Source: a virus
Lineage: Duplodnaviria; Caudoviricetes
Reading direction: 5' to 3' (one strand)
IMG/VR virus record: IMGVR_UViG_3300025885_000002
Location: 4,801 to 68,800 of that record
Length of the DNA: 64,000 nucleotides
The translations under genes were made by a program, and so were the position numbers. Numbering within the stretch: position 1 is the stretch's first letter; every line of letters starts with the position of its first letter. The notes beneath the pieces were generated by a model. It saw only the letters and a program-made list of their open reading frames with translations. It was not told the DNA's origin and ran no database searches. This document shows, in pieces, positions 46,931 to 63,316 of the stretch.

Positions 46931-46933
46931 ACA

Positions 46934-47843: not shown

Positions 47844-47850
47844 AGTTTCG

Positions 47851-48039: not shown

Positions 48040-48052
48040 AATGTTTCTCCTT

Positions 48053-48568: not shown

Positions 48569-48621
48569 TGAAAGGTAGGCGGGGCACCGGACCAAGATCC
48601 GATGTCCCGCTTTGGCGCGGC

Positions 48622-48963
48622 CTAAGTAGTGGGCCGTTCTGGCAGGGTGTCGTCGATCGACTGAAGCTTCGCAGCGATCGCGTTGGCCTTCGCCAGCGAG
48701 TCGGTGACATCGCCGCCGGCCGCGATCTGTGCCGCGAGATCAGCAAGGTGCGCCGCGAGATCATCCCCGAGTTTGGTTATCTCGGTGGAGACCGCGTCAA
48801 GCGCTGCGTTGAGTTCTTCCTTTGTAGCCATAGTACGTTGAACCTCCTTGAGTATTTTTAGAGTGCGGGTTTGTTGGTTAACGATCCTGTCGAGCTTGCA
48901 GAGGTGTGATTGAATCTCGTCAAGTCGTTCGATTACGTGACGTAGAGTGTGCCGCTGTCTCAT
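48622..48963 (-). CDS. Coiled-coil protein with in-frame internal start at 48831
   Basis: ATGA overlap at 48963; AAGGAGG precedes MATKEELN. Confidence 0.6.
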   Translation of the reverse strand: MRQRHTLRHVIERLDEIQSHLCKLDRIVNQQTRTLKILKEVQRTMATKEELNAALDAVSTEITKLGDDLAAHLADLAAQIAAGGDVTDSLAKANAIAAKLQSIDDTLPERPTT

Positions 48964-49094
48964 TTCGGTGCCTTCTTGCGCTGTCGTGTCTTGTTCATTC
49001 GAACGATTGCCGCTGCCTTGTCGAAGGCTTCGATGTCCGGATTCCGTTTCTTTCGCCGCTTGCGCTTGTCGCGTTTGCGACCTCGGTTCTTCAT
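48960..49094 (-). CDS. Highly basic 44-aa peptide
   Basis: Translated by hand: MKNRGRKRDKRKRRKKRNPDIEAF...; abuts both neighbours. Confidence 0.5.
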   Translation of the reverse strand: MKNRGRKRDKRKRRKKRNPDIEAFDKAAAIVRMNKTRQRKKAPK

Positions 49095-49097
49095 CGG

Positions 49098-49472
49098 TTA
49101 GTGGGCAAGGCTTAGCTGGTATTTGCCCAAGAGGTGGGTTGCCGAGAATACCGACGCGGGCGCAGTTTCCGTGAATGCAGCAAGAGCGTTGATCACGCTC
49201 GCCTCGTCGGTGAGCAGCGCCCCGTTGATTTTGTTCACGACGTCCCCGGCGTTGATGCCCAGGGTGCCCAGGAGGTCTGGCGTGTGGATCTTCAATCCTT
49301 GCCCGGAAATCAGCTTCCCGCTGAACCACGAGGCCTTGTCGCCACTGTCGATCAAGAAGGCGTAGTAGCAGGTATCCTGAGCTTGTTCGTCGCAGCTAGT
49401 CTGTTGTGACGTTCCGCCGCAGGCCTGAACATTGGATTCCCACTTTGTGTTGTCTGGTCCGCTGCAAGCCAT
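49098..49472 (-). CDS. Cys-rich N-terminus plus PDZ-like domain
   Basis: GLKI...LLGTLGINAGDVVNKING..L PDZ motif. Confidence 0.65.
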   Translation of the reverse strand: MACSGPDNTKWESNVQACGGTSQQTSCDEQAQDTCYYAFLIDSGDKASWFSGKLISGQGLKIHTPDLLGTLGINAGDVVNKINGALLTDEASVINALAAFTETAPASVFSATHLLGKYQLSLAH

Positions 49473-50236
49473 TAGTCTGGCCTCCTCATTTCTGGGATAT
49501 TGGGCGCGCGCATTGACGAATAGAGGGGAAGCGTCGGCCTTGCGATCATCTCGTCGTCTCGGTTTCGCGCCCCCGGTCCGGGGCCCGGATTTTTTGGAGC
49601 AGGGATCGCCTTTGGCTTCCCCTTCGTACCGCCCTTCGTGGGCACCGTTGTTGGCTTCAAGAGAAGATCCTTCAACTCGGCGATATCCTTTTTCAGTCCC
49701 TCAATTTCCTGTTTCGCTGTCGTCTCGCTTTTCGCCAGTTCCTTATCGACGGGCGTAGGCGTGCGATTGATGTAGACGTTGAAGACCACTGAGAGGAGCA
49801 GCACGAGGGCCCCGCTAATGAGCGGGATCTTCAAACGGAACCAGGTCCCGTCGCGCTTGTCGGTCTTCTTTTCTTCCTTCTCGCGCTGGATCTCGGCTTC
49901 CCGTTCGGCACGCGCTGTCTGCATATGCTCAAGCGTTTGCTCCATACGATCGATGCGCCCGTCCATCTCGTACAGCCCCGGTGCGCCGTTGCCCTCTTTG
50001 ACGTGCTGGAGAGCCAGTCCAAACTCTCGGTGCAAATTGTCGAAGAGCCGCCGCAGCTCCCCGAGCAACTCGGCTTTCTGATTCGCCAGGTCGAGGCGCG
50101 ATGCGAAGCTATCGGTGAGGGCCATCATCAGGCGGTCTTCTCGCTCTTTTTGATCCATCTCGGACTCCCCCAGGTATTCCGCGATCATCGGTCGGAGGTC
50201 GGCAAATACCGACTCTGCAACTGCGCAATGTGTCAT
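49472..50236 (-). CDS. Coiled-coil / TM / coiled-coil membrane protein
   Basis: TM IPLISGALVLLLSVVFNVYI; start re-called at the second ATG by GGAGG spacing. Confidence 0.7.
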   Translation of the reverse strand: MTHCAVAESVFADLRPMIAEYLGESEMDQKEREDRLMMALTDSFASRLDLANQKAELLGELRRLFDNLHREFGLALQHVKEGNGAPGLYEMDGRIDRMEQTLEHMQTARAEREAEIQREKEEKKTDKRDGTWFRLKIPLISGALVLLLSVVFNVYINRTPTPVDKELAKSETTAKQEIEGLKKDIAELKDLLLKPTTVPTKGGTKGKPKAIPAPKNPGPGPGARNRDDEMIARPTLPLYSSMRAPNIPEMRRPD

Positions 50237-50241
50237 TGGTT

Positions 50242-50441
50242 CCATTCCTCCTGCGCCTAAGTTCGTGGTGTGGAAGTCCTACCCACACACTCCGGGGACA
50301 ATTAGAGGAATGGGCGTGACTGGTGGTTGACCTGATTGAGGCGGTCGTGATTTGATCCCAGCCGTCTTTCGCCCCGTGGTCACTACACGTGGCGTCAGAT
50401 GGCCAGTCGTGGAATGCGCAAGTGTTCTGCGGCTGGTCCCC
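50242..50441 (-). promoter_or_regulatory. Structured intergenic leader with anti-SD helix
   Basis: CCATTCCTC/GAGGAATGG 9-bp pairing covers the SD; additional 6-7 bp crossing helices. Confidence 0.45.
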
Positions 50442-50449
50442 TTAAAGCT

Positions 50450-51049
50450 TTATCCGCCGGGCTTCTTACCCATACCGCCGAAGCCCAACGCCATACTGCC
50501 GGCACCTTGCGCCAAGCCGCTGAGTGCTGGAATGAGCCCGCCTTGCTGCTGTTGATAAAACTGAGATAGCCAGCCTTTGAGTGACTGGCTCAGTGCGTCG
50601 AGCTTGAGCCCCTGTTGAGCAATCTTGTTCTGCTGCCCCTGCTGGTAAGTATTCGAGAACGAAGCGTGCAGCTGTGGAATCATAGAACTCATAGCCTGCC
50701 CTTCAGAATCCCGCGCTCGCTCTTCGTTCAACTGCTGGACTCGCTGCGCAAGAATCGGATTGTCAGCACCGAACTTTGCCCCGACTCCCATTCCGGCTTC
50801 ACGCGAACCTTCACGGACACTTGTGGCGTAGGCATCTCGGATCGGCGCGAAGTAGCCAGAGAGAGTAGGATCCGAATCGTATTCGCCGCGATCGAGCGCC
50901 TTCAAACCGCGCTTCGCGCTCTTGGCCGCGTACCCGGTGTTGTTAGGGTTGATGCTGTCCGCGTACTCACCGATCTTGTCAGCTCGTTCCCCAACGCCGC
51001 CGTATGTTTTTGTTTCGGTTCCTCCGAAAAGCTTCGTCCAGATCGACAC
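50450..51049 (-). CDS. Small internal virion / ejection protein
   Basis: Gly/Ala/Gln-rich with an amphipathic Gly-rich C-terminus, downstream of the giant protein. Confidence 0.6.
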   Translation of the reverse strand: MSIWTKLFGGTETKTYGGVGERADKIGEYADSINPNNTGYAAKSAKRGLKALDRGEYDSDPTLSGYFAPIRDAYATSVREGSREAGMGVGAKFGADNPILAQRVQQLNEERARDSEGQAMSSMIPQLHASFSNTYQQGQQNKIAQQGLKLDALSQSLKGWLSQFYQQQQGGLIPALSGLAQGAGSMALGFGGMGKKPGG

Positions 51050-51059: not shown

Positions 51060-54000
51060 CTATTGCTGCATCAGCGCTTCGCGCACAGCTCGCCCGATAG
51101 TCCGCGATGGTTTGCGCTTCTCTTGTGGCTCCGCACCCTTTGGCCCGAGCTTTTCAGGAACAGCCTTCGCCTCAGCCATCGCCTTCGTAGCTGTTCGATT
51201 CATTGCGTCAATGATTCGATCCTTTGTCGGCACGTCCGTTGCCGCGTCGCGCTGCTTCTTCAGTTCGCTCAAAACCGTTGCTGCTTTGTTCAGGACACCG
51301 TGAGCCTTCGCGTCACCCTGAGTCTGCCCCTCAGGGCTCTTCGCCTTTTGTCCAGTGAGATCAAGTTCGCGGTAGAACTGCTGCACTTCAGGAGTGCCCT
51401 TGTAGGTTCCCAGACCGAACCCGGCGAACGCAGGAGCAGCTTTCGCAACTCCGACCCATCCGTCTTCCGTGGCAGCGTCTATCAGGTCGTTTGCGATCAT
51501 TGGGACGACCATCTGGATGAGCTGGTTCTGATCCAAGAATGCCGACGCTCCCTTCTGTTGTGGCATCCCAAGAGTTACCTGCTTGCCGCGCATGTCCGTT
51601 CCGGCGATCAGATTCACGACGGCCCCAGGTACCGGCGCCAACTTCGAGCGCCCGAACTGCTTCAGGACCTCGAAGAACTTGTCATTGTCCGCCTGTGGCG
51701 CACCCACTATCGTGCTCTCAATCGCACGCCCCATTCGAAACATTTGGCGCACGAATCCACCCATCCCGCCGGTCAGATCGACATGCGTCTTTCCGAAGAC
51801 TGCCTTGCCGAAGTCCGCGTCATCGGGATCAGACGTGACTTTCGCGCCCATCGCGGCAGCCCCGCCGAATATCGCGGCGAACGCCGCCATCGATCGGAGG
51901 GCTTCAGTGGCCGCAATGCGGCGCATCACCGGGTCATAGTGGATGTATCTGAGTGGATTGTAGACATCGTTGATCAACTGCACGCGCGACACCTGGAGCC
52001 GCCCGCTGAAGAGAAGATGATTCGCAGCGTTCGCATAGGTCTTTAGATTCTTCCCAAGATTTCCTCGACCAGTTGCAGAATTCACCAGGTGAGCTGCCTG
52101 TTTGAAGAACTCCGGGTGACTCTCGAACGTGTAGCCCTTGAGTCGGCCGGCGTCTGCATACTTGCTGAACATCGAGATCCGTTGCTGATTCATTGCGAGG
52201 TTATAGGCTTGCTCTGATTTTCGAACGTGCCATAGTCTCGCAGCTATTTCGCTCTGAAACGCCTCTTCGGACGCGTACCGTGGATCCACTTCAGTTGAAA
52301 GCCCGACGGTATCCAGTCCCGCCTGGCGACCCAACTCAAAGTCAGGATGCTGCTGCAATTCTTGCTGAGCCTTCGCGAATCCCTCTCGACTGAGGCGATA
52401 TCCTTCAATCGTGCGGCCTTCACGCAGGGTCTTAATCGGGTGAGTGACCAGATAGAACAATCCCTGCCTGCCGAGTGGGGCATCGATCGATGCCTTCAGC
52501 GCGCGTGGAGCTGACTGCATTTCGTGTAAGACTCGGCCAGCCGTCGAGCGACTCAGCCGTTGGAACTCTCGCGCCTGCGCCGCACGCGCTTCAAACGATT
52601 CCCGCTCGGCTTGAGCCTTCTGAATTCGAAGACCCATTACTTGAGAGTCGGTCATTGCGCCAGCTTCGCCTTTCGTCAAACTGGCGATCTTCGCAGCTTC
52701 TCGCGCGGCACTCTTGGCATCCTCCATCCGCTGAAAGGCCTGCTTGAATATCTGCCCCTTATTCTTCTTGTTAACCAAATCTGGGAACTGCTGCTTGAGA
52801 TCGTGGTAGAACTTGGACGTTGGTAGTACTCGACTCCGCGGCGGACCGCCTGGCTTCTCCGGAAGCAGCATCCCCGTCGCAACGTGCACCAGATCCTCGA
52901 GAGTCTGCGGACTATCGGGAGCTGCAGTTGCAAGTCGCTCCTTGGCAGCTGCAGCGCTATCTCGAATCGGGGTATCCCAGAGCCTCGAAGTCCGTTCCGC
53001 CTCTCTTTGGGCACCGACGCTCTCACGGTAACCTTTCTGCTGAGCCTTGTTTGCTTCACGAGCTGTCTTACGAGCTTCCTGGAGCCTCTGGCGCGCTTCT
53101 TCGGCTTGCGAGCGAGCTTCGGCTTGTTTGGCTTCTCCAGCTGCTTTCGCGGCTTCCTGGGCCTTCTGTCTTATCGCCTTCTTTTCCTGTCGGGTCTGAG
53201 CGCGTTCCGCTTCACGGATCTTCTGACGAATCTCTTGAACCGCTTCCTGCTCTTTGAATAGCCGCTGCCGAGCCTCTTCTCCTGCTCCCTGCTGGCTTGC
53301 CTTCTCAGCTTCAGCCAGAGCCTTACGAGTCTCTCTCAGTTGAGCCCGGGCTTCCCTTGCTATCTTGGCCCGCTCTTGACGATCAGCCTCCACCGCGGCG
53401 TCTGCTGCTTCGCGCGCTGCCTTCGCCTGGTCGCGGCGTTCCCTGCGAGCCTGCCGGGTGTCGACCTTCTCGGCCTCTCTCAGGGCTCTGCGCGCCTCCC
53501 TGATTTCGCTCGCAATCTCCTGAGCGGCAGTCGACCGAGTCTTCATATCCGCCAATCGATCTATCGTGTCTGCGCGCTTCTCTTCCGAGTAGATCTCGTA
53601 TGCACGCCGGCGAATGTCTTTCAGGTACGGCTCAGCTTCAGGAACTGCGCGCAAGATGTCGGCTTCCCATGTCGGTAAATCTACCTTGCCCAAACTTGCC
53701 GCTCCGTATTCAGCGATAATCTCCGCATCGCCTGGCAGTTTCCCGCGCTCACCGACGGCGCCGATTTGTCTGGGACGCTCGACCTCACCTTTCAAATTGC
53801 CGAAGTCCAGCTTGCCCATCTTGGCGCGAAGCTTCTCGAACGCGACGTTGGACTGCCTTTTCAGCCGACCTTCATAGTTAGTCTTTTCCTTTGGCGGGGG
53901 CTGAGGTCTCTCTGCGTTCTCTATATCCTCATATCTCCCAGGTCCCTTGCCTGCAGCCTCTAAGCGCATTGCTTCAGAGAGCGAATCCCATGGATTCGGT

Positions 54001-57000
54001 GCGTCGCGATCATATGCGTTCAGGCGAGTATTCTCTCCCCAGGGACCATAGCCCGGAAGAATGAATCCTTCCTCGCGAAGATGGTCCACCATGTCCTCAA
54101 CAGACCTACCGTTTTTTGTTATCAGTCCGGTTGTAGCTCCCTCCTTGTTGGAAAAGTGCATTGCGATGTCTGACTCTGATTCGTGAATACCGCCAGCCTT
54201 GCGAATCGCTGTAAGGAGCGATACGGGCTTCCTCTTCGGGATAGCCGCAGAGGCTTCGAGAAAAGGGTCGCGGGCGCGCCGTTCGGTTTCCAACTCGGCG
54301 ACCAGACCCTCGAGATGCTTGATGCGGGCGTCAGCATCAAAGCCCTTCTCGGCGTTCGCCGTGATGCGCGTGGCCTCTTCGACTGTCAGCTCTTTCGGGC
54401 CCCACTGCCACTTCCGCTTAGCGCGTAACTCCTTCTTCAACTTCGTCGCGATGGTGAGTTGACGCTCCGGAGAAAACATTGCAACGGCCTTCACCGCATT
54501 GATTGCTTGGCCAGTGCGAGTCATCTTCTCGGCAAACTCAGAGGCGAAGTCGACGGCCTTTTGCATCAAGACCTCCGCTTCTCCCGCTCGCTTCGTGTCC
54601 CCGGCGATCTCGGCTGCCCGATCCTGCAACTCTCGAATTGCCGCGAATCCGGCGATTGTCGATTCCGCGCTTACGTTATCTCCTCGAGCGAACTCCATCG
54701 CACCGTCTACGCCCTTCTCTTTGAGAATTGCGCGACCACGTTCTTCGGCGACGCTCAACGGCTGAGGTTCGTAAGTTTTGTTTGTTCCGGGTTCGAGGCC
54801 AGCAGCGGCGAGCGTTTGAGGCAGTGCGCGCTCTTTGCTGCCTTGCGGATATTCAGGTGGGCCATCGAAGTGGCCCGACTCGTCGCGGGGTTGAAATGCA
54901 GAGTGATGCGTCTCGGCGTTCTCACTCTTCCCGCCGAGTGGAATGGTTACCATCTCTCCGTTCTTGCCGCTGAACGTAATCTCGTTGAGCTCTACCTTTC
55001 GGCCCTCCAGGTCGGTGCGGCCTGAATACTTCTCGCCAAGGCCTGGCTTCACATACGCAACAGTCACGTGAGGCTTGTACTCCGGATGAGTATCGGTATG
55101 AGGCAGCGCATCGGCAATGATCTTGTTCAGACGATGCAGGTCGGGACTGTCGACCTCGGCAATCACGGCGTCGGCTGTACCGTCTTCGACACTCTTGAAT
55201 GTGGACGTCTTACCTATCGTTGCTGTGATGGGACCTTCATCGGCGAGGATCTCTCGAACTTTCGCCGCATCTGCGGTGTGTAATCCGTACTTGACTGTGA
55301 TGTGGGGTTCGGTCTCGCGACCATCGGCAGCAAGATCCCCTGTCGGAATGGTGCGGCCGAGCGCACGTACGGCTTTCGCGTGCTCATTTGGAAGATCGAC
55401 CTGCGTTGAGCTGAACTTGTGGACGGTGCCCGGCTCTACATCTTGTGCTTGCTCGCGAGTGGTGCTTGCTCCACTTCGGCCTGCTTCTTGGGATCCGACT
55501 TCGGCGGCAGCGTTACCGTGAGCTTCCCGCCCGGCGGCAGGCTCAGGAGCCAATCCGCTAAGGGTTCTGCCGGTTGCGTCTTGTCCTGCGGTTGCCTTGT
55601 TCCGGTTGAGGCCGGCGTTTGCGGCTGCTTCGTTTTCTCCGATGCCATGATGTAGCTCTACTCCCTTAATCTCGTGGACGGTTCCATCAGGGGCTTCATA
55701 GCGCACTGTAGCATCTCTCAGGCGTGCTTGTATATTCCCTATTTTGGCCTGTAGCTCTTCCGGAGAACTTGCCTTCAACGCAAACTCATCGCCCTTGAGG
55801 TGATAGGCTCCCCCGGGATGTTCATCCGCTACTGCCTGTGCCACCGCGTGAAGAATCTCATCTCCCATCTCAGGCGCGATCTTGTCGTTCGTCCGCTTGA
55901 GTCCCACGACGTCCAGCGCCGCGTGGTGGTTCTTGATTCCAGCTTCCGCGTCTACAGCATTCGACTCATTGTAGGCCCGACGATTTGGGATGCCGGTCAG
56001 TTCGTGCGTCAACAACGCCTGCGCCCGTTCCTCCGGAGTCATCGCCTCGACTCGTTTGCGTTCCTCCGCATTTTGACGACGATCACCCTGGCGACGATCA
56101 CCTTCCGCTACTGGACGCTCAGAAGTGACGGGCGGCTGAGACTCCGTGACAAGCCCCCTTTCCGCAGGCGTAGCCCCCTGTGCCCGCGGTATCGGAGTCG
56201 TTTCAGTGGCAGGAACACCGTCAGCCGCCCGTTTTTCAAACTGAACTTCGTCCGGGCGTTGTGTCGCTGAAGTTGGCACGCTTTCTGGCGGAATCGCGGA
56301 CGGCTGCGCGCTCTCTGTCAGAGGAGCAGTACCCTGTTGTGTATCACCAGGTGCAGCCGCCCGCGCTTCCGGTTCAATAAATCGAGCCTTTGGGTTCTTG
56401 CCTGCTAAGAGCACCTCTTTAATCGAGCCGTTGTCGAACTTCACTCGGACGTGTTGCGCCTTTACCCCCCGCTGGTTTGCATCGGCGATGCCCAGCCCAA
56501 AGTCATCGTGCTCTACAATCCGGCCGGCATTCTCGTGAGCCATTTCTCGGGCGACACGCTCGCGAGCCTTTGCAACCGCCTGCTCCTCCGTTATCTTGCC
56601 GCCACCGTGGAGCGCGAAGGCGATATCGAAGATTCGCCGACCGAAGAAGGCCGTTCGCTCCTCGGGCGTTTTCGGAATGACGCTCCCGCCTTCAAGCGCT
56701 TCCGTGCCCATAGAAATTGCACTATTGGCGAGTGCTCGCCCTGCGAGTTTCGACAGGCCACCGAGAGTAGTCCTTTCAAGTGCACCGCCGGCAGCACCCA
56801 TTACAGCGGGAGCTCCCGCGCCGATAAGACCCTTTGTGATTGCTTCGCCAGCCGGATCACCTGAGCTGTAGCTCGACGCGGCTGCCTGTCCGCCCATGAG
56901 ATACGGCGCTGCTTCGGGCAGGACCGCTGAGGCTAACAGCACAGGAGCCATCCCAACGGCACCCTCGTAGATCTCTTTCCCGAGGCCGGGCTCAAGTCCG

Positions 57001-58241
57001 TGAGCGCGGAGGTTAGCGGCTTCTTTGCGTGCCCTACCTGCAACCTGGCTGAAGATATTCCCCGGCGTTTCAGCGTCTTGCTGCTGGTTGAGCGCCTTCA
57101 ATCTCGCTTGAAGGTCAGGCAGCTCGTTCTCAAGAGCATTGCGCTCGGACTCAGACCACGCCGAGCGAGGAACTTTGGCCGCGCCCAGTTCCGCTGCTTT
57201 CCCTTCCAATGCCGCGATCTGCTGCTTGAGCAACTTCTGCTCAGGAGTGTCTGTCGATAGTGCCCGGCCGATAGTGCCCAACTCCTCCGCGCCCAAGTCG
57301 ACTAGCGGCCCTTCGGTTGAATTGGCTAAACGTTGCGCCAGCGGATTCCGGATCGTGGGGTTTCCCATCACGTCCACATCAGCAACGGGATTTCCCGCCG
57401 CGTCATAGAGGCCGGGAGTCGTCCCAGGCTTAGGTAGCTTGTCGGATGTTACTCCGCCCTTGACCGCAGAGTAGCTGCCCTCTGGATACTGGCCTGTCTC
57501 CTTCGCGCGAGCCGCGGCCTGCATCGCGGGCTGATTCGTTTGCTCCTCCTCCCAAAACTTCAGCGGATCACTGCGGAAGTCCTGCGCCAGCTTCGATCGC
57601 TTAGGGCCTCGGACGCGACGACGCGGATTGAGCACTGGATCGGCGGGAGCCTGTGCAGCGGGCGCCGTACTCGGTCGCTTCTGATATGGATTCCCGAATT
57701 CATCGGCGCCGACTTCATACCCTTTCGCCTTCAGTCGATCAGCGTAGAGTTTGACCGCATCGGCGTTACCGCCTTTCTTGTAGATCTCGAATTGTCTTTC
57801 GGCCTCAGTATCTTCCTGGAATTGAGGAGCCACACTCTTAACGGGCTTATTGGACGACGCCCCTGGAGTAACCGCCGTTGAATCATCGTCAAAGGACAGG
57901 TCGTCCCACTTTGCTGTTTGCCGCGGCTTTGCGGTCGGCTTCCACGCGACGTGAAGATGATCGCCCTCATCCAGCATCTCGCTGATCTGATCACCGTAGA
58001 GGGACTCGATATGCTTGCGGGTTGCTTTCTTCTGCTCCGGCGTGCCAACCAGGTCCAAGGCGTTCCCGGTCAGATGATTCGAATGCTCCGCGCCGCCGAC
58101 CGCTTTGTTGTGCGCAGGCGTGCGAGTATAGGACGACGTGCGCATTCCGAGCCTCGTAGCTTCTCCGGCGATGTGGTCAGCTACGCCCGGAGGCTCATCG
58201 AACGTCAGATCGTCCCACTTGACTTTGGATTGAGGGGTCAT
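51060..58241 (-). CDS. Giant polyvalent internal virion / ejection protein with M15 peptidase, GGDEF-like and 2H phosphoesterase domains
   Basis: SNHLTGNALD...HLH (M15); ELTGIPNRR...D..GLK..ND...GD...KGDEF; PHITV/PHVTV; long coiled coil; position between tailspike/pilot and small ejection genes. Confidence 0.85.
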   Translation of the reverse strand: MTPQSKVKWDDLTFDEPPGVADHIAGEATRLGMRTSSYTRTPAHNKAVGGAEHSNHLTGNALDLVGTPEQKKATRKHIESLYGDQISEMLDEGDHLHVAWKPTAKPRQTAKWDDLSFDDDSTAVTPGASSNKPVKSVAPQFQEDTEAERQFEIYKKGGNADAVKLYADRLKAKGYEVGADEFGNPYQKRPSTAPAAQAPADPVLNPRRRVRGPKRSKLAQDFRSDPLKFWEEEQTNQPAMQAAARAKETGQYPEGSYSAVKGGVTSDKLPKPGTTPGLYDAAGNPVADVDVMGNPTIRNPLAQRLANSTEGPLVDLGAEELGTIGRALSTDTPEQKLLKQQIAALEGKAAELGAAKVPRSAWSESERNALENELPDLQARLKALNQQQDAETPGNIFSQVAGRARKEAANLRAHGLEPGLGKEIYEGAVGMAPVLLASAVLPEAAPYLMGGQAAASSYSSGDPAGEAITKGLIGAGAPAVMGAAGGALERTTLGGLSKLAGRALANSAISMGTEALEGGSVIPKTPEERTAFFGRRIFDIAFALHGGGKITEEQAVAKARERVAREMAHENAGRIVEHDDFGLGIADANQRGVKAQHVRVKFDNGSIKEVLLAGKNPKARFIEPEARAAAPGDTQQGTAPLTESAQPSAIPPESVPTSATQRPDEVQFEKRAADGVPATETTPIPRAQGATPAERGLVTESQPPVTSERPVAEGDRRQGDRRQNAEERKRVEAMTPEERAQALLTHELTGIPNRRAYNESNAVDAEAGIKNHHAALDVVGLKRTNDKIAPEMGDEILHAVAQAVADEHPGGAYHLKGDEFALKASSPEELQAKIGNIQARLRDATVRYEAPDGTVHEIKGVELHHGIGENEAAANAGLNRNKATAGQDATGRTLSGLAPEPAAGREAHGNAAAEVGSQEAGRSGASTTREQAQDVEPGTVHKFSSTQVDLPNEHAKAVRALGRTIPTGDLAADGRETEPHITVKYGLHTADAAKVREILADEGPITATIGKTSTFKSVEDGTADAVIAEVDSPDLHRLNKIIADALPHTDTHPEYKPHVTVAYVKPGLGEKYSGRTDLEGRKVELNEITFSGKNGEMVTIPLGGKSENAETHHSAFQPRDESGHFDGPPEYPQGSKERALPQTLAAAGLEPGTNKTYEPQPLSVAEERGRAILKEKGVDGAMEFARGDNVSAESTIAGFAAIRELQDRAAEIAGDTKRAGEAEVLMQKAVDFASEFAEKMTRTGQAINAVKAVAMFSPERQLTIATKLKKELRAKRKWQWGPKELTVEEATRITANAEKGFDADARIKHLEGLVAELETERRARDPFLEASAAIPKRKPVSLLTAIRKAGGIHESESDIAMHFSNKEGATTGLITKNGRSVEDMVDHLREEGFILPGYGPWGENTRLNAYDRDAPNPWDSLSEAMRLEAAGKGPGRYEDIENAERPQPPPKEKTNYEGRLKRQSNVAFEKLRAKMGKLDFGNLKGEVERPRQIGAVGERGKLPGDAEIIAEYGAASLGKVDLPTWEADILRAVPEAEPYLKDIRRRAYEIYSEEKRADTIDRLADMKTRSTAAQEIASEIREARRALREAEKVDTRQARRERRDQAKAAREAADAAVEADRQERAKIAREARAQLRETRKALAEAEKASQQGAGEEARQRLFKEQEAVQEIRQKIREAERAQTRQEKKAIRQKAQEAAKAAGEAKQAEARSQAEEARQRLQEARKTAREANKAQQKGYRESVGAQREAERTSRLWDTPIRDSAAAAKERLATAAPDSPQTLEDLVHVATGMLLPEKPGGPPRSRVLPTSKFYHDLKQQFPDLVNKKNKGQIFKQAFQRMEDAKSAAREAAKIASLTKGEAGAMTDSQVMGLRIQKAQAERESFEARAAQAREFQRLSRSTAGRVLHEMQSAPRALKASIDAPLGRQGLFYLVTHPIKTLREGRTIEGYRLSREGFAKAQQELQQHPDFELGRQAGLDTVGLSTEVDPRYASEEAFQSEIAARLWHVRKSEQAYNLAMNQQRISMFSKYADAGRLKGYTFESHPEFFKQAAHLVNSATGRGNLGKNLKTYANAANHLLFSGRLQVSRVQLINDVYNPLRYIHYDPVMRRIAATEALRSMAAFAAIFGGAAAMGAKVTSDPDDADFGKAVFGKTHVDLTGGMGGFVRQMFRMGRAIESTIVGAPQADNDKFFEVLKQFGRSKLAPVPGAVVNLIAGTDMRGKQVTLGMPQQKGASAFLDQNQLIQMVVPMIANDLIDAATEDGWVGVAKAAPAFAGFGLGTYKGTPEVQQFYRELDLTGQKAKSPEGQTQGDAKAHGVLNKAATVLSELKKQRDAATDVPTKDRIIDAMNRTATKAMAEAKAVPEKLGPKGAEPQEKRKPSRTIGRAVREALMQQ

Positions 58242-59614
58242 TGAATGACTTCAGTGATCGGGTCACCCTGGCTGTCGATACCTGTAACACGAACCTTCGT
58301 ACCATCTCTGCGGGTGGCGGTCTTGCCGATGCGGGGATCCTTCGAGTTTGTCACGCCAGGCTTCCCGCCCCCACCGCCAGACGTCTTCGCGCGACGTGAA
58401 CCGATCTTCTGGGGCTTCGGTGGCGGGTTGGCGTTGTCCCAGGACAGCTTCATCTTGGCGGCCTCATCGGGCTCCAGATCGCCGCGGGCAACCTGGCTGT
58501 CAATCTGAGTCAGTGCTTCTTGCTTGCGTTTGCTATGGGCAGCGGGCGTCTCGCTCCCTTCGGGAAAACCAAACACGTCCTCAGTGTCAGTGACCGCGTT
58601 GGGATCGGCCGGGACGTGCGCCGTGACACCTTCGACTGCACGTTTCGCTCCTGTCAGCTTGTTGACATACCAGACCTTTCCTTGCGCGTTGGTGATCTTG
58701 TCCCACTCGCTCGCTTCATTCTTAGGCGCGAACTGTTTCGGAGGAGGCTTTTTGCCTTCGAGCTCGGGTCGCCCCATTCGTAAGGCTTCGGCCTTGCTCG
58801 CGGGCACATTCGGATCACCGTGACTTAGCCACGTTTGATATGCCCGCTCCTCTGCGGACGTCCGCGCTGCGTTCGAGCGCTGATCGCGGTCTGCGGTGTG
58901 AGTCTCAGCTTCCTGCTTGAGCCGCTGGGCAGCGAGATCGTTGTCAACACCGATGTTGCCGATTCTCGCGTTACTCTCATTCAATCCCTGCTGAGTTTTG
59001 GCCTGCTCGATCTCATCCTGCTGTCGCTGCTGCCACAGGGGGAGATCTCTGTAATAGTGCTGCGCTCTGTGGTAGAAATCCGGATCGATCGCGCCGCCTA
59101 TTGCGCCAGCCGCAGCTCCGCCGACTCCCCCGCGCATAAATCCCATTCCTGCGGATTTCAATGCGTGCACCACGCGAGAGCCGAATCCGATCGGCTTACC
59201 GTGTTCGTGCAGGTCTGGCTCTTCCGGCCGCGGAGTAAAAGGAAACGGAGCATTCGGAGGAGCGCCCACAGTATTCGCAGGCGTAGTCGACATTCCGGCT
59301 GGAATTTCCGGCTGCGGCGTACCCTCCATTCGAACTGCAGCCAAACTTGGAGGCGCTGAATGCGAGGCGGGAGGCATTACCGATGCGTTTGGGAGATTCA
59401 ATCGATCAAGGGCTCTCGGATCGGTCGGCGCGATATTGGCATCGGGTAAAGGCGCTTGTCGAAGCCTCTCAGCTACCAGATCGGGCTGCGCGGCCACCGG
59501 TTGCGACACTGGTTGCGGCCGAACCGTTGCCTGGAGCTGATTCGGCTGTTGAGCCATGAGCATATCTTGAAGGCGCTTCTTGAGTAGATCGTCTGAAGTT
59601 GGAAGGTTGTACAT
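58238..59614 (-). CDS. Putative DNA pilot / ejection protein
   Basis: Pro/Gln-rich disordered N-terminus, GMGFMRGGVGGAAAGAIGG segment, coiled coil. Confidence 0.6.
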   Translation of the reverse strand: MYNLPTSDDLLKKRLQDMLMAQQPNQLQATVRPQPVSQPVAAQPDLVAERLRQAPLPDANIAPTDPRALDRLNLPNASVMPPASHSAPPSLAAVRMEGTPQPEIPAGMSTTPANTVGAPPNAPFPFTPRPEEPDLHEHGKPIGFGSRVVHALKSAGMGFMRGGVGGAAAGAIGGAIDPDFYHRAQHYYRDLPLWQQRQQDEIEQAKTQQGLNESNARIGNIGVDNDLAAQRLKQEAETHTADRDQRSNAARTSAEERAYQTWLSHGDPNVPASKAEALRMGRPELEGKKPPPKQFAPKNEASEWDKITNAQGKVWYVNKLTGAKRAVEGVTAHVPADPNAVTDTEDVFGFPEGSETPAAHSKRKQEALTQIDSQVARGDLEPDEAAKMKLSWDNANPPPKPQKIGSRRAKTSGGGGGKPGVTNSKDPRIGKTATRRDGTKVRVTGIDSQGDPITEVIQ

Positions 59615-59626: not shown

Positions 59627-62600
59627 CTACAGGAGCGTGATTACCTGCGGACTGTTGTTAATGATTTTGTAGAAAATCTTATAGGTCGTTTCAGTGAGCG
59701 ACCCGGTTGGCGTCACTTGCACCGTGACCTTATTCGTCCCGTCGACGGCAGCCCAAGTTGCCGTCAGAGTTCCCGACGACACAGCCTTTGCATCGTTTGA
59801 GGTGTTGTTTGTGAAAGTCTTTGTATAGGTTCCCGCCTTGTTTACCACCGCGAAGGTTGTAATACCCGAGAACGCCTGATGATCGGTGCCATTCGACGCG
59901 ATGATTGTCCATTCAATTTGGCCGCCAGCCATCGTTCCGGCCGCCAGAGCAATTTCAAACAGGCTGGTTGCCGCGTCGGTCACATTCTTATCGAGCCCAA
60001 CAAACTCCCGGGCAATTCTGGTCGCAGTTTGTTTCGGCGTCGTCTCCCATCTAAGATAGGAGCCTTGGGCTGTCGAAATGGTCCACGCTTCTGAAGAGAA
60101 GCCGACCATTGCGGCACCGTTCGAAAGCGAAGCGACACTGGCACCGTTCTTCGCGCCGAACGTATAGAATGCTATACGGTGATCCGCTGCTGAAGGCACC
60201 GTGCTGTAGCCTGCTTGGATACCTGCCCCTCCACCCGCAGAGGTTGCACTTGAATTGATGATGTGAAGTTGAGCTACACCGGTATCAATGATTTCCAGCT
60301 TGCACACGCCGCCCGCCACACCGGCAACCGTTGCACCGATTCGGACCGAACCCTTACCCGCACTGTCATAGTCGGGGGCCGGATTCAGGAAGATGTCCGC
60401 GAAGATCGAGCCCGAAGATGGGGCAGCGTTCGACGTACCGCGAAGAATCAGCTGATCGTTGATAGTGGTGCCACCCACCATTGTAGGCTGGACCAGGATG
60501 GCAGGATGGCTTAACAGAACGGTCGCGCCGGCACCGTTGTCCGTCAGGGTATGCTGGCCAGCAGTGACCGACAAGGTTCGGCTCTGTGGCCACGCCAAAG
60601 TATCAGGTGTCAGCAGGAGAACCTGAGAGCTCGTGCCCGCTGCGTTTGGTACCCAACTCAACACCCCCGCAGAGGTAGACTGCAGGATCATGTTCGACAC
60701 TGGATAAGCCGGGAGGGTATAAATCGCGTTCGACGCGACAGCATCAGGAGCTTTGAATCCTATGTAGTTGACTCCATTCGCTGCCAACTCCAAAAACCGT
60801 ATTTCGTTGGTATTCCCCGCAGCCGCGCCATAGGGTTTGAGTGACAATCCCGCAGAACCTGTCACCGACCACGAACCACCAAACATCTCCTGTTGATCCG
60901 TCACTCCCCAAAACTTGTTATCCGTCGGCGTCGTGCCCACGCCGCCGTCTATTGTCGGCAAGCCCCAGAACGCCAACCCATAACCTGTTGCAGGAGCCCA
61001 GGTCGCAAGCGAGTTGTCGATGACATAGGAGTTCGCTGCCGAGGTTGCGTTGATCGAGCAGCCGTTGAAAAAGTTGTTAACCGGGAAGTTCGCCACGCCA
61101 GCAATCGGCCGCACGCGCAACCCGGTCGCCGCTTTCGCCGTCACGCCCCAGAAATAATTATGATCGCAGTAGCCGAGGGTGATCGCCGTCCCACCCGTTC
61201 CGCCGTCTCCCCGGATACCACCGCCCTTGAACTGCCACTGAGCAACAGGACCGGAATTCCCAATCCGCAAGAGGGTGATGTTATTCACCCCAACAGTGTT
61301 GATGCTGAGATCCTCGACCAGCCCGTTGAATCCCTGAACTCCGACGAACGAACCGCCGTTGAAGGTGTTCGTGTTGTAGGAGTCGATATCTACCGCGACG
61401 TTATTGTTCGGTGCAACCGCACCCGCCACGATCCCGGTGACAATGATCCGACGAAGAACCGTAAAGGCCGAGTGAACCGCTTGAATCGCTCCCGTTGCCG
61501 TACTGTTCCCATCGAGAAACAGTTCTTCGAGTCCCGCCCCGGCAATCGGACCGTTGATCTTGATCATTATCGCTGCGCCGCCGCCCCAGCGAAGCTTGAC
61601 AGCGGGACGATGACCAGTGAGATAGCTATGTCCCGAACCCACGCCGACCCACCGAACGCCGTCATAGGTTGAGACTGTGGTCGCGTTGCCGTTGCCCAGA
61701 TTGAGCGTGGAATTGAACTTGTAGGCGATAGGCGGTTGCGGAAAGTACACAACCCCCCCGCCGGCGGCCGCACAAGCATCATTCGCAGCCTGTATCGCGG
61801 CCGCGTCGTCGGTACTATTGTCGCCCACCGCGCCGTAAGCCATGACGTTGAAGACCTGGCCACCCTTGTCCCATAACCCACCGCTGAATGTCTTGAGTCC
61901 AGGAATCGTCTGCGCCGCATTGCTCAACATCCCCGAGGTCACTGACGAGGCCGCCATCAAGGGGAAGTGCAGAGTAATGGAGTTCGCCGCATAGGTGGCA
62001 TTCGGAAAGTTTCCCGTCGCGCCAAAGAGAATATCGCGATACTCGTGAGCATTCCCCGCGGAGTTGACGCTGACCACTCTATTCGCGGCGCCAAGAACAA
62101 GCCCGATGCCGCCGTTTGCCGGCGGAAGCAGTCCGGTTACTCCCGCGGTCAAATCCACTTGGGCCCAACTCGCATCCGTTCCATTACTCGAGATGTAGCG
62201 GTTCGCAGCGCCAAGAGGGAGTCTCGCGGTTACGTTCGACGAGTTGCGGAAAATCAAGTCGCCCCGGGTCGTCATCGGGTCCGCGAACCCCGCCACGGGC
62301 GCAGCGTTGATCCAGTTCGAGCCGTCCCAACTTATGACGTGGTTCAGCACGGGCGCCGAGATCGTCGTTCGCAGGGCAACCGTGCCCGTCCCACTGACCG
62401 TTGCGTAGTCGGTCAGATCGGTGACGCTCCAGACTTCCTGTCCCTGAGAAGCGGTCAGCTTACCGGCTGAGAGTCCCGCATATCCATTGGTGGCGTTCTT
62501 ATTGGCCGCGTTCTCCGGTGTGAATCCCAACGCGGCCTGCTTACTGTTGAACGTAGTCCAGTCAGCTGCTGCCAAGTACCCATTCTGACCGGCAGTCGCC

Positions 62601-63316
62601 ACGGGCATCGAGACGGTATTGCTCGCAAAGACAACTGGCGCTGTCGCGCTGATTGGCGCTTGATAATCCGTTCCTGCGACTCCAATGCTCTGGACGCCAG
62701 TCCCGGTCGTATTCTTGACCAGCCCGGTTCCGAGCGAACCCATCACCTGGGCGTTCGCAAGTCCACCAGCCGCCGTCTTCAGGAGATAGGTCGCGTTCGA
62801 AGGCGCAAAGCTTCCCCCGGACGTTAACTGAGCAACAAGCCGGGTTACTTCATCGCGGGTTGGATAGGTATCAACAGGCAGGGACGGAGAAGGGGTGTTG
62901 TACTGAATGAGATCCGACCAGGAAGCGCAGGTACCGAGGGGCGTGCATCCCGAGCCGGAGATTATCTGCGCCGGAATAGTCAGCCCATTCTGAGTGTTGG
63001 GAATTTCGTCAATCGGCGTGATCGAGTTTCCCACTACGGACACGACCCAGAAATGCAGCCGCACATTCGAGCCGCGGATTGCATCACGAGTCGACGTCAG
63101 CGTGAACAGCGGAATCGTAAGAGTGTGCTGTGTGGTGTTGACGACCAGGCTGGGGACGCGCTGAGTCCAGACTCGGTCGTTGATGTCCCCGGCCCCATGG
63201 GGAATCCCGGCGACATCAACCCAATCACGGTCCGAGAAGACCCATAGTTCGATGCCGGATGTTCGGATATCCTGCCACCCGGTAAGAACTATGCTTTGAA
63301 CGTCGATATTTGCCAT
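59627..63316 (-). CDS. Tailspike / tail fibre with pectate-lyase-like beta-helix
   Basis: VFNVMAYGAVGDNSTDDAAAIQAA...GGGVVYFP (Pectate_lyase_3-type start), Gly/Asn-rich beta-helix, fibre-like linker regions. Confidence 0.88.
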   Translation of the reverse strand: MANIDVQSIVLTGWQDIRTSGIELWVFSDRDWVDVAGIPHGAGDINDRVWTQRVPSLVVNTTQHTLTIPLFTLTSTRDAIRGSNVRLHFWVVSVVGNSITPIDEIPNTQNGLTIPAQIISGSGCTPLGTCASWSDLIQYNTPSPSLPVDTYPTRDEVTRLVAQLTSGGSFAPSNATYLLKTAAGGLANAQVMGSLGTGLVKNTTGTGVQSIGVAGTDYQAPISATAPVVFASNTVSMPVATAGQNGYLAAADWTTFNSKQAALGFTPENAANKNATNGYAGLSAGKLTASQGQEVWSVTDLTDYATVSGTGTVALRTTISAPVLNHVISWDGSNWINAAPVAGFADPMTTRGDLIFRNSSNVTARLPLGAANRYISSNGTDASWAQVDLTAGVTGLLPPANGGIGLVLGAANRVVSVNSAGNAHEYRDILFGATGNFPNATYAANSITLHFPLMAASSVTSGMLSNAAQTIPGLKTFSGGLWDKGGQVFNVMAYGAVGDNSTDDAAAIQAANDACAAAGGGVVYFPQPPIAYKFNSTLNLGNGNATTVSTYDGVRWVGVGSGHSYLTGHRPAVKLRWGGGAAIMIKINGPIAGAGLEELFLDGNSTATGAIQAVHSAFTVLRRIIVTGIVAGAVAPNNNVAVDIDSYNTNTFNGGSFVGVQGFNGLVEDLSINTVGVNNITLLRIGNSGPVAQWQFKGGGIRGDGGTGGTAITLGYCDHNYFWGVTAKAATGLRVRPIAGVANFPVNNFFNGCSINATSAANSYVIDNSLATWAPATGYGLAFWGLPTIDGGVGTTPTDNKFWGVTDQQEMFGGSWSVTGSAGLSLKPYGAAAGNTNEIRFLELAANGVNYIGFKAPDAVASNAIYTLPAYPVSNMILQSTSAGVLSWVPNAAGTSSQVLLLTPDTLAWPQSRTLSVTAGQHTLTDNGAGATVLLSHPAILVQPTMVGGTTINDQLILRGTSNAAPSSGSIFADIFLNPAPDYDSAGKGSVRIGATVAGVAGGVCKLEIIDTGVAQLHIINSSATSAGGGAGIQAGYSTVPSAADHRIAFYTFGAKNGASVASLSNGAAMVGFSSEAWTISTAQGSYLRWETTPKQTATRIAREFVGLDKNVTDAATSLFEIALAAGTMAGGQIEWTIIASNGTDHQAFSGITTFAVVNKAGTYTKTFTNNTSNDAKAVSSGTLTATWAAVDGTNKVTVQVTPTGSLTETTYKIFYKIINNSPQVITLL

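What the first reader, a model, noticed from the sequence alone, without database searches (positions are those of the whole stretch)
51060..58241. Presumed ejected giant protein combining a wall peptidase, a cyclic-dinucleotide cyclase and a cyclic-nucleotide phosphodiesterase
Seen: one 2393-aa ORF carries an M15 (DD-peptidase-fold) Zn peptidase at about 57939-58185 (SNHLTGNALD...HLH), a GGDEF-like domain at about 55596-56100 and, about 60 aa later, a 2H phosphoesterase at about 54930-55421. It sits between the tailspike/pilot genes and a small ejection-type gene. Established: podoviral ejection proteins enter the cell with the DNA, and polyvalent phage proteins deliver enzymes before transcription. 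Inference: an injected 'write and erase' second-messenger module that destroys defence signals while making its own dinucleotide at the moment of entry. I do not know of an experimentally characterised case of this tandem pairing.
Basis: partly seen in the sequence, partly recalled or inferred. Interest (0 to 1): 0.9.

Follow-up and report, generated by a model that had tools for sequence, protein, structure and literature searches.

The report
Giant phage polyvalent protein, cyclase plus phosphodiesterase
One 2,393-residue gene of an uncultured temperate phage joins a cell-wall peptidase, a c-di-GMP-synthase-like domain and an Acb1-like phosphodiesterase to a conserved cysteine-free carrier; it is a new example of the "polyvalent" proteins, described in 2017, that phages are thought to inject with their DNA.

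Summary
ORF 51060-58241 (minus strand) is real. It carries a Peptidase_M15 domain (residues 36-98), a GGDEF-fold domain (about 709-907, signature KGDEF, no I-site) and, 25 residues later, a 2H phosphoesterase with an intact HxT/HxT tetrad (about 932-1110) whose nearest solved relatives are Acb1 anti-CBASS enzymes.

The gene closes the virion module of a 68.8-kb phage genome with terminal repeats, next to a tailspike gene. Its last ~1,280 residues are a carrier shared with other giant phage proteins that bear Aravind-type polyvalent domains. The protein has no cysteine, like nearly all of its relatives.

The class, and the presence of GGDEF and 2H domains in it, were described by Iyer et al. 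2017. This scan has also met GGDEF-bearing polyvalent proteins in at least 47 other genomes. So this is a new member of a known kind.

- **New here:** the GGDEF belongs to a large clade found mostly in giant proteins. When that clade's GGDEF and a 2H domain share a protein, they are neighbours in 12 of 13 cases, in both orders.
- **Relevant published fact:** T4 Acb1 does not cleave c-di-GMP.
- **Untested:** injection, both enzyme activities and any "write and erase" coupling.

The parts
51060..58241 (-). Whole gene: 2393-aa polyvalent protein (P0001)
   Evidence: Open frame. ATGA overlap with the upstream gene; SD plus GTG of the next gene after its TAG. No cysteine.
57948..58136 (-). N-terminal Zn peptidase, Peptidase_M15_3 (residues 36-98), with the H-x6-D ... 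H-x-H motif
   Evidence: Pfam 39.9 bits against a cutoff of 23.2. PHROG endolysin/peptidase hits. The motif is visible in the translation. P0003 shares this domain at 50% identity.
56907..56972 (-). Weakly hydrophobic Gly/Ala-rich segment (residues about 424-445)
   Evidence: Kyte-Doolittle maximum 1.49 over 19 residues, below the usual transmembrane threshold. Its role is unknown.
55521..56117 (-). GGDEF-fold cyclase-like domain (residues 709-907): conserved [ED]RR...MTPEE N-terminal helices, KGDEF signature, no RxxD I-site
   Evidence: Pfam GGDEF 27.5 bits. Family-HMM envelope 709-907. AF2 pLDDT 89.9, with Foldseek matches to GGDEF cyclases only. D777, K782, N785, D794 and G817-D818-E819-F820 are kept.
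54912..55448 (-). 2H phosphoesterase, Acb1-like (residues 932-1110): HxT at H980/T982 and H1058/T1060
   Evidence: Pfam 2_5_RNA_ligase2 57.5 bits and Acb1 31.6 bits. Best PDB sequence matches are Acb1 entries 9q2g, 9q2y and 7t26. The invariant H/T tetrad appears in alignment A4.
53562..54911 (-). First part of the conserved carrier (residues about 1110-1560)
   Evidence: 34-38% identity to P0003-P0008 and 75-79% to P0002. No family match.
53022..53561 (-). Highly charged E/K/R/A/Q-rich stretch, probably helical (residues about 1561-1740)
   Evidence: 70-85% E/K/R/A/Q in 60-residue windows.
51063..53021 (-). C-terminal conserved helical module, LPD38-like (residues 1741-2393)
   Evidence: 35-80% identity to P0002-P0008 and 25-31% to many others. 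Alignment A3 has invariant D, Q, E, R and GRG positions. AF2 pLDDT 77.8. BFVD matches to 'large polyvalent protein associated domain (38)' proteins. ESM Atlas neighbours include an LPD38 cluster.
58238..59614 (-). Upstream 458-aa gene, translationally coupled, cysteine-free, no family match
59627..63316 (-). Tailspike (1229 aa), pectate-lyase-type
   Evidence: PHROG tail spike families and Pfam PF12708.
50450..51049 (-). Downstream 199-aa gene with its own SD, no family match

Best explanation
This is a phage-type polyvalent protein: a large cysteine-free carrier (residues about 1110-2393, ending in an LPD38-like module) with three enzymes attached at the front.

**Shown by sequence and fold**
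- An intact LAS-type M15 zinc peptidase at the N-terminus.
- A GGDEF-fold domain that keeps the metal-binding, guanine-contacting and GDEF residues and lacks the feedback I-site.
- A 2H phosphoesterase with a complete HxT/HxT tetrad, closest to Acb1.

**Inferred**
- Copies are packed into the virion and released into the cell with the DNA. The peptidase helps to cross the wall.
- In the cytoplasm the 2H domain cleaves adenine-containing cyclic oligonucleotide alarm signals of CBASS-type defences. The unregulated cyclase makes c-di-GMP, which Acb1-type enzymes do not cut.
- The two nucleotide enzymes are independent cargo modules that are often inherited as a neighbouring pair. They are not an obligate couple.
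For: **Class**
- Homologues of 1316-4188 aa share the carrier. They carry SLT, ART-PolyVal, InPase, ddrB-ParB, LPD38, RelA_SpoT, Zeta-toxin or SNF2-methylase domains instead of, or besides, ours.
- P0003 is M15 plus carrier only.
- P0004 sits next to a pectate-lyase tailspike and an S74 fibre gene.
- The C-terminal model matches LPD38-type proteins in BFVD.

**Virion module**
- TerS, major capsid protein, tail-fibre and tailspike genes lie on the same strand, and the giant gene follows the tailspike.

**Translocation signature**
- There are 0 Cys in 2393 aa against 0.88% in the phage's other ORFs.
- There are 97 Cys in 425,651 residues of 198 related giant proteins.
- Stand-alone 2H relatives have 0.58% Cys.

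**Cyclase**
- 2024 representative clusters match at E<=1e-3, and the best 150 are mostly giant proteins.
- D777, N785 and G817-D818-E819 are invariant in 156 sequences and F820 is kept in 151. The first motif position is S, K or G.
- 31 of 150 relatives carry an inorganic pyrophosphatase domain, usually adjacent, which fits a PPi-releasing reaction.
- The fold is confirmed.
- An active cyclase (T. maritima, 4urs) has Ala where ours has V779.

**Phosphodiesterase**
- The best PDB matches are Acb1.
- Iyer et al. predicted this role for polyvalent 2H domains.
Against: - No experiment exists on this protein or on any close relative. Packaging, ejection and both activities are inferences.
- The phage is far from cultured phages, so its tail type is unknown.
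- Our GGDEF copy sits on a long branch (1.82 against a median of 0.48).
- It departs from the family consensus at D779V, G789A, R885A, G890T and R895S, and it has a unique 7-residue insert. It may be a weak or altered enzyme.
- Lys at the first G of the motif has not, to my knowledge, been tested biochemically.
- The Acb1 assignment is only modestly better than other 2H families: 30.6 bits against 24.2 for a plant CPDase.
- The adenine-contacting Glu and the lid of Acb1 were not checked.
- No other endolysin was recognised in the late genes scanned, so a lysis role for M15 is not excluded.
Confidence: 0.55

Rival explanations
1. The GGDEF domain does not work as a cyclase here. It is a nucleotide-binding regulator of the neighbouring phosphodiesterase, like the degenerate GGDEF that binds GTP and switches on the adjacent EAL domain in Caulobacter PdeA (from my own knowledge). 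The eraser would then become active only in a GTP-rich cytoplasm.
For: - GGDEF and 2H are adjacent in 12 of 13 proteins that hold both, in either order.
- Our copy is among the more diverged members and lacks two conserved Arg of the C-terminal tail.
- At the same place, the nearest relative P0002 has a GGDEF-like domain so divergent that K782 and F820 equivalents are lost.
Against: - The catalytic residues are invariant across the clade.
- 95% of the closest relatives have no 2H partner.
- 21% of them have an adjacent pyrophosphatase, and four have tandem GGDEF copies. Both features point to catalysis.
Confidence: 0.15
2. The two domains form a two-step pathway. The cyclase makes a dinucleotide, and the 2H enzyme opens it to a linear product with a 2',3'-cyclic or 3'-phosphate end. 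The effect is either a distinct phage signal or a drain on the GTP pool.
For: - Adjacency is far above chance: 12 of 13 against 1.67 expected.
- Adjacency appears in separate branches of the GGDEF tree.
- Acb1 chemistry yields such ends.
- InPase occupies the same neighbouring position in other members, and it would likewise pull the reaction forward.
Against: - T4 Acb1 does not cleave c-di-GMP.
- Our 2H is 57-64% identical to 2H domains of giant proteins without GGDEF and 63% to stand-alone ones. It is only 36-55% identical to those next to a GGDEF, so it is not a specialised partner version.
- The zero overlap between the InPase and 2H sets is not significant at these numbers (about 1.6 expected).
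Confidence: 0.08
3. The 2H domain acts on RNA rather than on cyclic oligonucleotide signals. It would be an RNase, or an enzyme that heals 2',3'-cyclic phosphate ends. This is one of the two options offered by Iyer et al.
For: - The generic 2H family scores higher than Acb1 (57.5 against 31.6 bits).
- LigT-like and CPDase structures score close behind Acb1.
- The 2017 paper proposed an RNase role, based on the fusions to MuF and portal domains.
Against: - The nearest solved relatives by sequence are all Acb1.
- Many stand-alone relatives carry the Acb1 Pfam family.
- No RNA ligase partner is present.
Confidence: 0.15
4. The protein is not injected. It is a tape measure or other purely structural tail protein, or a late cytoplasmic protein whose M15 domain serves lysis.
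For: - It is long, with helical and charged stretches.
- No endolysin was recognised elsewhere in the late block.
- The tail type is unknown.
Against: - The gene follows the tailspike instead of sitting between tail chaperones and distal tail genes.
- It carries three globular enzymes.
- Its relatives swap cargo on a fixed carrier.
- Near-total cysteine avoidance is specific to these giants, not to the capsid, portal or tailspike proteins of the same phage.
Confidence: 0.07

Closest known systems
Phage-type polyvalent proteins (Iyer, Burroughs, Anand, de Souza, Aravind 2017, J Bacteriol, PMC5512222)
   Same: - Several unrelated enzymes sit in one giant polypeptide encoded among virion genes.
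- A muralytic domain is present.
- 2H and GGDEF are both on that paper's domain list, and 2H, InPase and LPD38 are listed as phage-specific.
- Our homologues carry ART-PolyVal, InPase, ddrB-ParB and LPD38.
   Different: - The muralytic domain is M15. I did not find M15 or VanY mentioned in the paper.
- No zincin processing peptidase was detected.
- The paper calls GGDEF 'not very widespread' in these proteins, whereas the clade found here has 600 representative clusters at E<=1e-10.
- I found no statement there on GGDEF-2H adjacency or on cysteine avoidance. Its figures and supplements could not be read.
Acb1 anti-CBASS phosphodiesterase (T4 gp57B, Erwinia phage FBB1; Hobbs et al. 2022, PMC9117128; PDB 7t26, 9q2g)
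   Same: - 2H fold family with the HxT/HxT tetrad.
- Best PDB sequence matches.
- Passes the Pfam Acb1 cutoff as an isolated domain.
   Different: - It is embedded in a 2393-aa protein instead of being a free protein of about 150 aa expressed after entry.
- Sequence identity is low (profile E-value 2.6e-6).
- The substrate-contact residues (Y12, W74, F107, E141, W147 of FBB1) and the lid were not mapped.
- Activity is unknown.
Diguanylate cyclases with a GGDEF domain (PleD, WspR, T. maritima TM1788; PF00990)
   Same: - Same fold.
   Different: - The first Gly of the motif is Lys. The clade uses S, K or G there.
- The Arg before the motif is His.
- There is no RxxD I-site and no sensory partner domain.
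- The clade has its own N-terminal [ED]RR...MTPEE helices and a C-terminal R/G-rich tail.
- It lives in giant phage proteins.
P1 DarB and Bcep22 gp75 / JC1 DarB-like virion-associated giant proteins
   Same: They are giant phage-encoded enzymes. P1 DarA and DarB are described as virion-associated proteins that protect the incoming DNA, and the DarB-like gene of JC1 fills about a third of its virion morphogenesis module (PMC9144972).
   Different: - No sequence match to our protein in the phage collection.
- Their cargo is a methylase plus helicase acting on DNA, not nucleotide-signal enzymes.
T7-like internal virion protein gp16 and other podophage ejection proteins (review PMC8954989)
   Same: - An N-terminal wall-degrading domain is followed by a large helical body.
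- The gene lies beside the tail genes.
- There is a weak structural match of the C-terminal module to the 'internal virion protein' of Synechococcus phage S-CBP3 (E 2.9e-3, TM 0.33/0.27).
   Different: - The match is weak and there is no sequence homology.
- T7 gp16 carries a transglycosylase and no nucleotide enzymes.

Membership tests
Phage-type polyvalent proteins (Iyer et al. 2017) | Two or more domains of unrelated biochemical activity in one polypeptide | tested here: met
   M15 peptidase, GGDEF and 2H each pass Pfam cutoffs as isolated segments.
Phage-type polyvalent proteins (Iyer et al. 2017) | Encoded by a phage or prophage among virion or late genes | tested here: met
   The record is a 68.8-kb virus genome with terminal repeats. 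TerS, major capsid protein, fibre and tailspike genes lie on the same strand. Relative P0004 lies beside tailspike and fibre genes.
Phage-type polyvalent proteins (Iyer et al. 2017) | Homology to recognised polyvalent proteins or LPD domains | tested here: met
   Proteins sharing the carrier hold ART-PolyVal, InPase and SLT. BFVD matches are to LPD38 proteins. The Pfam LPD38 model itself did not match our sequence.
Phage-type polyvalent proteins (Iyer et al. 2017) | Packaged in the virion and delivered with the DNA | not testable with these tools
   Only indirect signs are available: gene position, an N-terminal wall enzyme and cysteine avoidance.
GGDEF diguanylate cyclases (PF00990) | Pfam model above the gathering score | tested here: met
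   27.5 bits against 23.8 on residues 700-900. Not reported on the full-length protein at E<=1.
GGDEF diguanylate cyclases (PF00990) | GGDEF fold | tested here: met
   AF2 pLDDT 89.9. The top 40 or more PDB matches are all GGDEF domains, probability 1.00.
GGDEF diguanylate cyclases (PF00990) | GG[DE]EF signature with both acidic residues | tested here: inconclusive
   The motif is KGDEF. G817, D818, E819 and F820 are present, but the first Gly is Lys, as in 45 of 156 clade members. The activity of this variant is unknown.
GGDEF diguanylate cyclases (PF00990) | Metal-binding Asp and guanine-contacting Asn/Asp (PleD D327, N335, D344) | tested here: met
   D777, N785 and D794 align with these positions. 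D794 argues for GTP rather than ATP.
GGDEF diguanylate cyclases (PF00990) | Synthesis of c-di-GMP | not testable with these tools
   Needs an enzyme assay.
Acb1 anti-CBASS phosphodiesterases (PF23474) | 2H fold with the HxT/HxT catalytic tetrad | tested here: met
   H980/T982 and H1058/T1060 are invariant in alignment A4. 2H Pfam families match.
Acb1 anti-CBASS phosphodiesterases (PF23474) | Pfam Acb1 model above the gathering score | tested here: inconclusive
   31.6 bits against 27 for the isolated domain, but 24.4 bits in the full protein. Other 2H families score close behind in the PDB search.
Acb1 anti-CBASS phosphodiesterases (PF23474) | Aromatic stacking residues, adenine-contacting Glu and C-terminal lid | not tested
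The HMMER alignments cover only the region of the two HxT motifs.
Acb1 anti-CBASS phosphodiesterases (PF23474) | Cleavage of 3'3'-cGAMP and related signals | not testable with these tools
   Needs an enzyme assay.
Peptidase M15 / LAS zinc peptidases | H-x6-D and H-x-H zinc and catalytic motifs | tested here: met
   HLTGNALD and HLH are in the translation. Pfam Peptidase_M15_3 scores 39.9 bits.
Tape measure proteins | Gene placed between tail chaperone genes and distal tail genes; mostly extended helix without globular enzymes in the body | tested here: not met
   The gene follows the tailspike. Three globular enzyme domains are present.

The most novel reading that the evidence does not exclude
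The GGDEF-2H neighbour pair is a functional unit that rewrites the host's cyclic-dinucleotide pool at the moment of entry. An Acb1-like eraser removes adenine-containing alarm nucleotides. An unregulated cyclase beside it supplies a dinucleotide that the eraser cannot cut.

That dinucleotide could redirect host physiology. It could also keep guard systems quiet, namely those that watch the nucleotide pool as Panoptes does. Over-expressed Acb1 can set off Panoptes (PMC12657218).

Recurrent adjacency in both orders and in several GGDEF lineages would then reflect selection for the pair.
Probability: 0.2. Interest if true: 0.75.

Novelty: new member of a known kind. Interest (0 to 1): 0.4.

Why it matters
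If packaging and both activities were shown, this would be a direct example of a phage delivering a counter-defence phosphodiesterase, and a second-messenger synthase, before any phage gene is expressed. That timing matters against abortive-infection systems that fire early.

Three wider points come out of the comparison and can be tested with a roughly 400-residue fragment in laboratory strains:
- There is a large, mostly giant-protein GGDEF clade without a feedback site, often next to a pyrophosphatase.
- GGDEF and Acb1-like 2H domains are neighbours in 12 of the 13 proteins found here that hold both.
- These carriers almost completely lack cysteine.

The class itself, and the presence of both domain types in it, are already in the literature. 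The finding therefore refines a known picture rather than opening a new one.

Tried and rejected
- **Nucleotide search:** megablast of the gene against 50,697 phage records gave no match.
- **Protein search of phages:** tblastn found only the 2H domain in scattered phages, plus one weak C-terminal match.
- **Placing the phage:** the major capsid protein and the putative portal have no close cultured relatives, so tail morphology could not be assigned.
- **Mixed alignment:** alignment A1, made for a two-domain fold, put the GGDEF-only sequences onto the 2H region and was discarded. The domains were then treated separately.
- **C-terminal module against solved structures:** Foldseek gave nothing below E 0.3. 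VIA-align gave only generic helical bundles on residues 541-630 of the model.
- **Relatives of P0002's divergent domain:** the search found only one, P0298, which has no 2H.
- **2H near a family GGDEF in genomes:** tblastn for a 2H domain within 4 kb of the GGDEF match found none in any of the 80 loci kept from 185,579 species genomes.
- **+1-frame ORF:** a 70-aa ORF over the GGDEF/2H linker (55436-55648) looked like an overprinted gene reported elsewhere in this scan. It is low-complexity and has no conserved counterpart (E above 3).
- **Tape-measure reading:** rejected on gene position and domain content.
- **Supplements of the 2017 paper:** not held, so its full architecture list could not be checked for a GGDEF-2H pair.
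Full report
**The object.** The window is bases 4801-68800 of a 68.8-kb virus record with direct terminal repeats, rated complete. On the minus strand a small terminase subunit, a major capsid protein, a tail-fibre-like protein and a 1229-aa pectate-lyase-type tailspike precede the gene in question. An integrase and recombination and replication genes show a temperate phage. ORF 51060-58241 is open for 2393 codons. Its ATG overlaps the stop of the preceding 458-aa gene (ATGA), and the next gene follows after a Shine-Dalgarno sequence. It is therefore part of a tight late operon. The phage has no close cultured relative.

**The three domains.** Scanned as separate segments, all three pass Pfam's curated cutoffs:
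- Peptidase_M15_3, residues 36-98
- GGDEF, residues about 747-845
- 2_5_RNA_ligase2 and Acb1, residues about 975-1065

On the full-length protein only M15 and the generic 2H family pass, Acb1 is just below its cutoff, and GGDEF is not listed. The M15 domain shows the H-x6-D and H-x-H zinc motifs.

An AlphaFold2 model of residues 715-900, built on 19 relatives, has pLDDT 89.9. In the PDB it matches only GGDEF domains of diguanylate cyclases.

The 2H domain has both HxT motifs (H980/T982 and H1058/T1060), which are invariant among 33 relatives. Its best solved relatives by sequence are Acb1 proteins (9q2g, 9q2y, 7t26). A plant cyclic phosphodiesterase and LigT-like proteins score only a little lower.

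**What kind of protein it is.** A search for proteins of similar length found 48 relatives. Local comparison shows that residues about 1110-2393 form a conserved carrier:
- 75-80% identical to P0002
- 35-49% identical to P0003-P0008
- 25-31% identical to a dozen others

The N-terminal part is exchangeable. P0003 is the same M15 domain plus the carrier alone. P0004 carries SLT, InPase and ART-PolyVal, and lies beside a tailspike and a fibre gene on a 61-kb contig. P0018 has an N-terminal SLT, then GGDEF, 2H and ddrB-ParB, and ends in LPD38.

The model of our last 653 residues (pLDDT 77.8) matches predicted structures annotated 'large polyvalent protein associated domain (38)' in BFVD. It matches a cyanopodovirus 'internal virion protein' weakly, and nothing in the PDB. 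ESM Atlas neighbours are viral, and one cluster is LPD38.

These are the polyvalent proteins of Iyer et al. 2017 (PMC5512222). That paper lists 2H, InPase and LPD38 as phage-specific domains of the class. It names GGDEF among the nucleotide-signal domains. It proposes that the 2H domains act as RNases or degrade nucleotides made by defence systems.

**Evidence bearing on delivery.** Nothing here shows packaging. The indirect signs are:
- the gene's place at the end of the virion module;
- a wall-degrading domain at the N-terminus, as in relatives that have SLT there;
- cysteine avoidance.

The protein has no Cys in 2393 residues, against 0.88% in 18 other ORFs of the same phage, including the major capsid protein, the putative portal and the tailspike (chance about 7e-10). 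The 198 related giant proteins collected here hold 97 Cys in 425,651 residues, and 115 of the 135 that reach 1500 residues have none. Stand-alone relatives of the 2H domain have 0.58%. This fits a protein that must pass unfolded through the tail and the periplasm. The scan has noted the same trait in many other genomes, and I did not find it in the 2017 paper.

Experimental precedent for virion-carried giant enzymes is P1 DarB. JC1 and Bcep22 encode a DarB-like giant protein in their virion morphogenesis module (PMC9144972). An ejectosome protein that blocks a CBASS effector has also been reported (bioRxiv 10.1101/2025.07.23.666291).

**The cyclase-like domain.** A full HMMER search of residues 715-900 against 1.84 billion representatives gave 2024 matches at E<=1e-3 and 600 at E<=1e-10. 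The best 150 have a median length of 1734 residues, and 66 exceed 2000. This is a distinct clade that lives mostly in giant proteins.

In an alignment of 156 members:
- D777, N785, G817, D818 and E819 are invariant, and F820 is kept in 151.
- K782, R755 and K882 are nearly invariant.
- The position before GDEF is S (85), K (45) or G (18).
- No RxxD I-site is present.
- The clade has its own conserved N-terminal [ED]RR...MTPEE helices and an Arg/Gly-rich tail.

D794 corresponds to the guanine-contacting Asp of PleD, which argues for GTP.

Our copy keeps 88.6% of 45 conserved columns, the 26th lowest of 155. It departs at V779, A789, A885, T890 and S895, has a unique seven-residue insert, and sits on a long branch. 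The active T. maritima cyclase has Ala at the position of V779, so that change is not disqualifying.

Thirty-one of the 150 relatives carry the polyvalent inorganic pyrophosphatase domain, usually next to the GGDEF (22 of 31 within 80 residues, 3.97 expected). Four have two GGDEF copies in tandem. Both features fit a working, dimerising, PPi-releasing enzyme. I rate activity of the clade as likely, and of this copy as probable but less sure.

**The pairing with 2H.** Only 8 of the 150 closest GGDEF relatives carry a 2H domain, and four more cases came from the first search. In 12 of these 13 proteins, ours included, the two domains lie within 80 residues of each other. Random placement would give 1.67. 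Six cases have each order.

On a quick maximum-likelihood tree the 2H-linked GGDEFs are scattered, with ten changes of state. Strongly supported branches force at least two origins for each order, but many forks are weak.

Our 2H domain is closest to 2H domains of giant proteins without GGDEF (57-81%) and to stand-alone proteins (63%). It is not closest to those beside a GGDEF (36-55%).

P0002 is 81-87% identical across the 2H domain. At the place of our GGDEF it has a sequence that no Pfam or clade model detects. A profile comparison aligns that sequence motif by motif with the GGDEF clade, but only weakly (hhalign probability 29%, E 6e-4). Its one relative, P0298, has the same domain without a 2H.

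None of the 80 genome loci kept for this GGDEF search, the best of them in Acidobacteriota MAGs, has a 2H within 4 kb.

So the pair is uncommon and not obligate, but when both are present they travel as neighbours. That may mean functional coupling or simply cassette inheritance.

**Mechanism.** [quoted passage not shown] A guanine-specific cyclase next to an Acb1-like enzyme would therefore not be undone by it.

My best reading is that these are independent cargo enzymes on an injected carrier. One removes adenine-containing alarm nucleotides. The other raises c-di-GMP without feedback control.

The rivals are:
- a GTP-sensing, non-catalytic GGDEF that controls the phosphodiesterase;
- a two-step pathway;
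- an RNA-directed 2H;
- a non-injected structural or lysis protein.

A more speculative link is to guard systems that watch the nucleotide pool. Over-expressed Acb1 can set off Panoptes (PMC12657218), and a phage cyclase could in principle compensate.

**Novelty and score.** The class, both domain types within it and the counter-signal role of 2H were published in 2017, and Acb1 chemistry in 2022. This scan has already recorded GGDEF-bearing polyvalent proteins in at least 47 genomes and Acb1-like 2H cassettes in several. I found no experimental study of a virion-delivered GGDEF.

The specific M15 + GGDEF + 2H combination is a new member.

Noticed in passing
window 51060-58241; relatives P0002-P0199: There is no cysteine in 2393 residues, against 0.88% in the phage's other ORFs. 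The 198 related giant proteins hold only 97 Cys in 425,651 residues, and 115 of the 135 that reach 1500 aa have none. Stand-alone 2H relatives have 0.58%.
   Followed up: yes
relatives P0050-P0199 (GGDEF clade): 31 of 150 carry the polyvalent inorganic pyrophosphatase domain PF18823, mostly directly next to the GGDEF on either side. None of these also has a 2H.
   Followed up: yes
P0050, P0054, P0056, P0074: These four have two copies of the clade's GGDEF domain in tandem in one protein. That could supply the dimer a diguanylate cyclase needs.
   Followed up: partly
L004:1-1110 (P0002 residues 120-259): The closest relative has, upstream of its 2H domain, a sequence that aligns motif by motif with the GGDEF clade but very weakly (hhalign probability 29%, E 6e-4). 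The Lys and Phe equivalents are lost. This looks like a swapped or decayed cyclase-like module.
   Followed up: partly
window 52244-58048, minus strand: All six same-strand alternative-frame ORFs of 60 aa or more inside the giant gene are in the +1 frame. The one over the GGDEF/2H linker (55436-55648, 70 aa) is low-complexity and has no conserved counterpart.
   Followed up: partly
window 46392-51049, minus strand: None of the seven late ORFs scanned downstream of the giant gene (104-257 aa) matches an endolysin, holin or spanin family. The M15 domain is the only muralytic function recognised among the ORFs scanned.
   Followed up: no
L005-L019: The best genome matches covering the whole clade-type GGDEF, including its N-terminal extension, lie on long contigs of Acidobacteriota (Terriglobia, Terriglobales) MAGs and one Chromatiales MAG. 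Together with 57-58% G+C, this hints at a soil acidobacterial host range for the family.
   Followed up: no
window 53022-53561 (residues 1561-1740): A 180-residue stretch is 70-85% E/K/R/A/Q, probably a long charged helix. It lies between the two conserved parts of the carrier.
   Followed up: no
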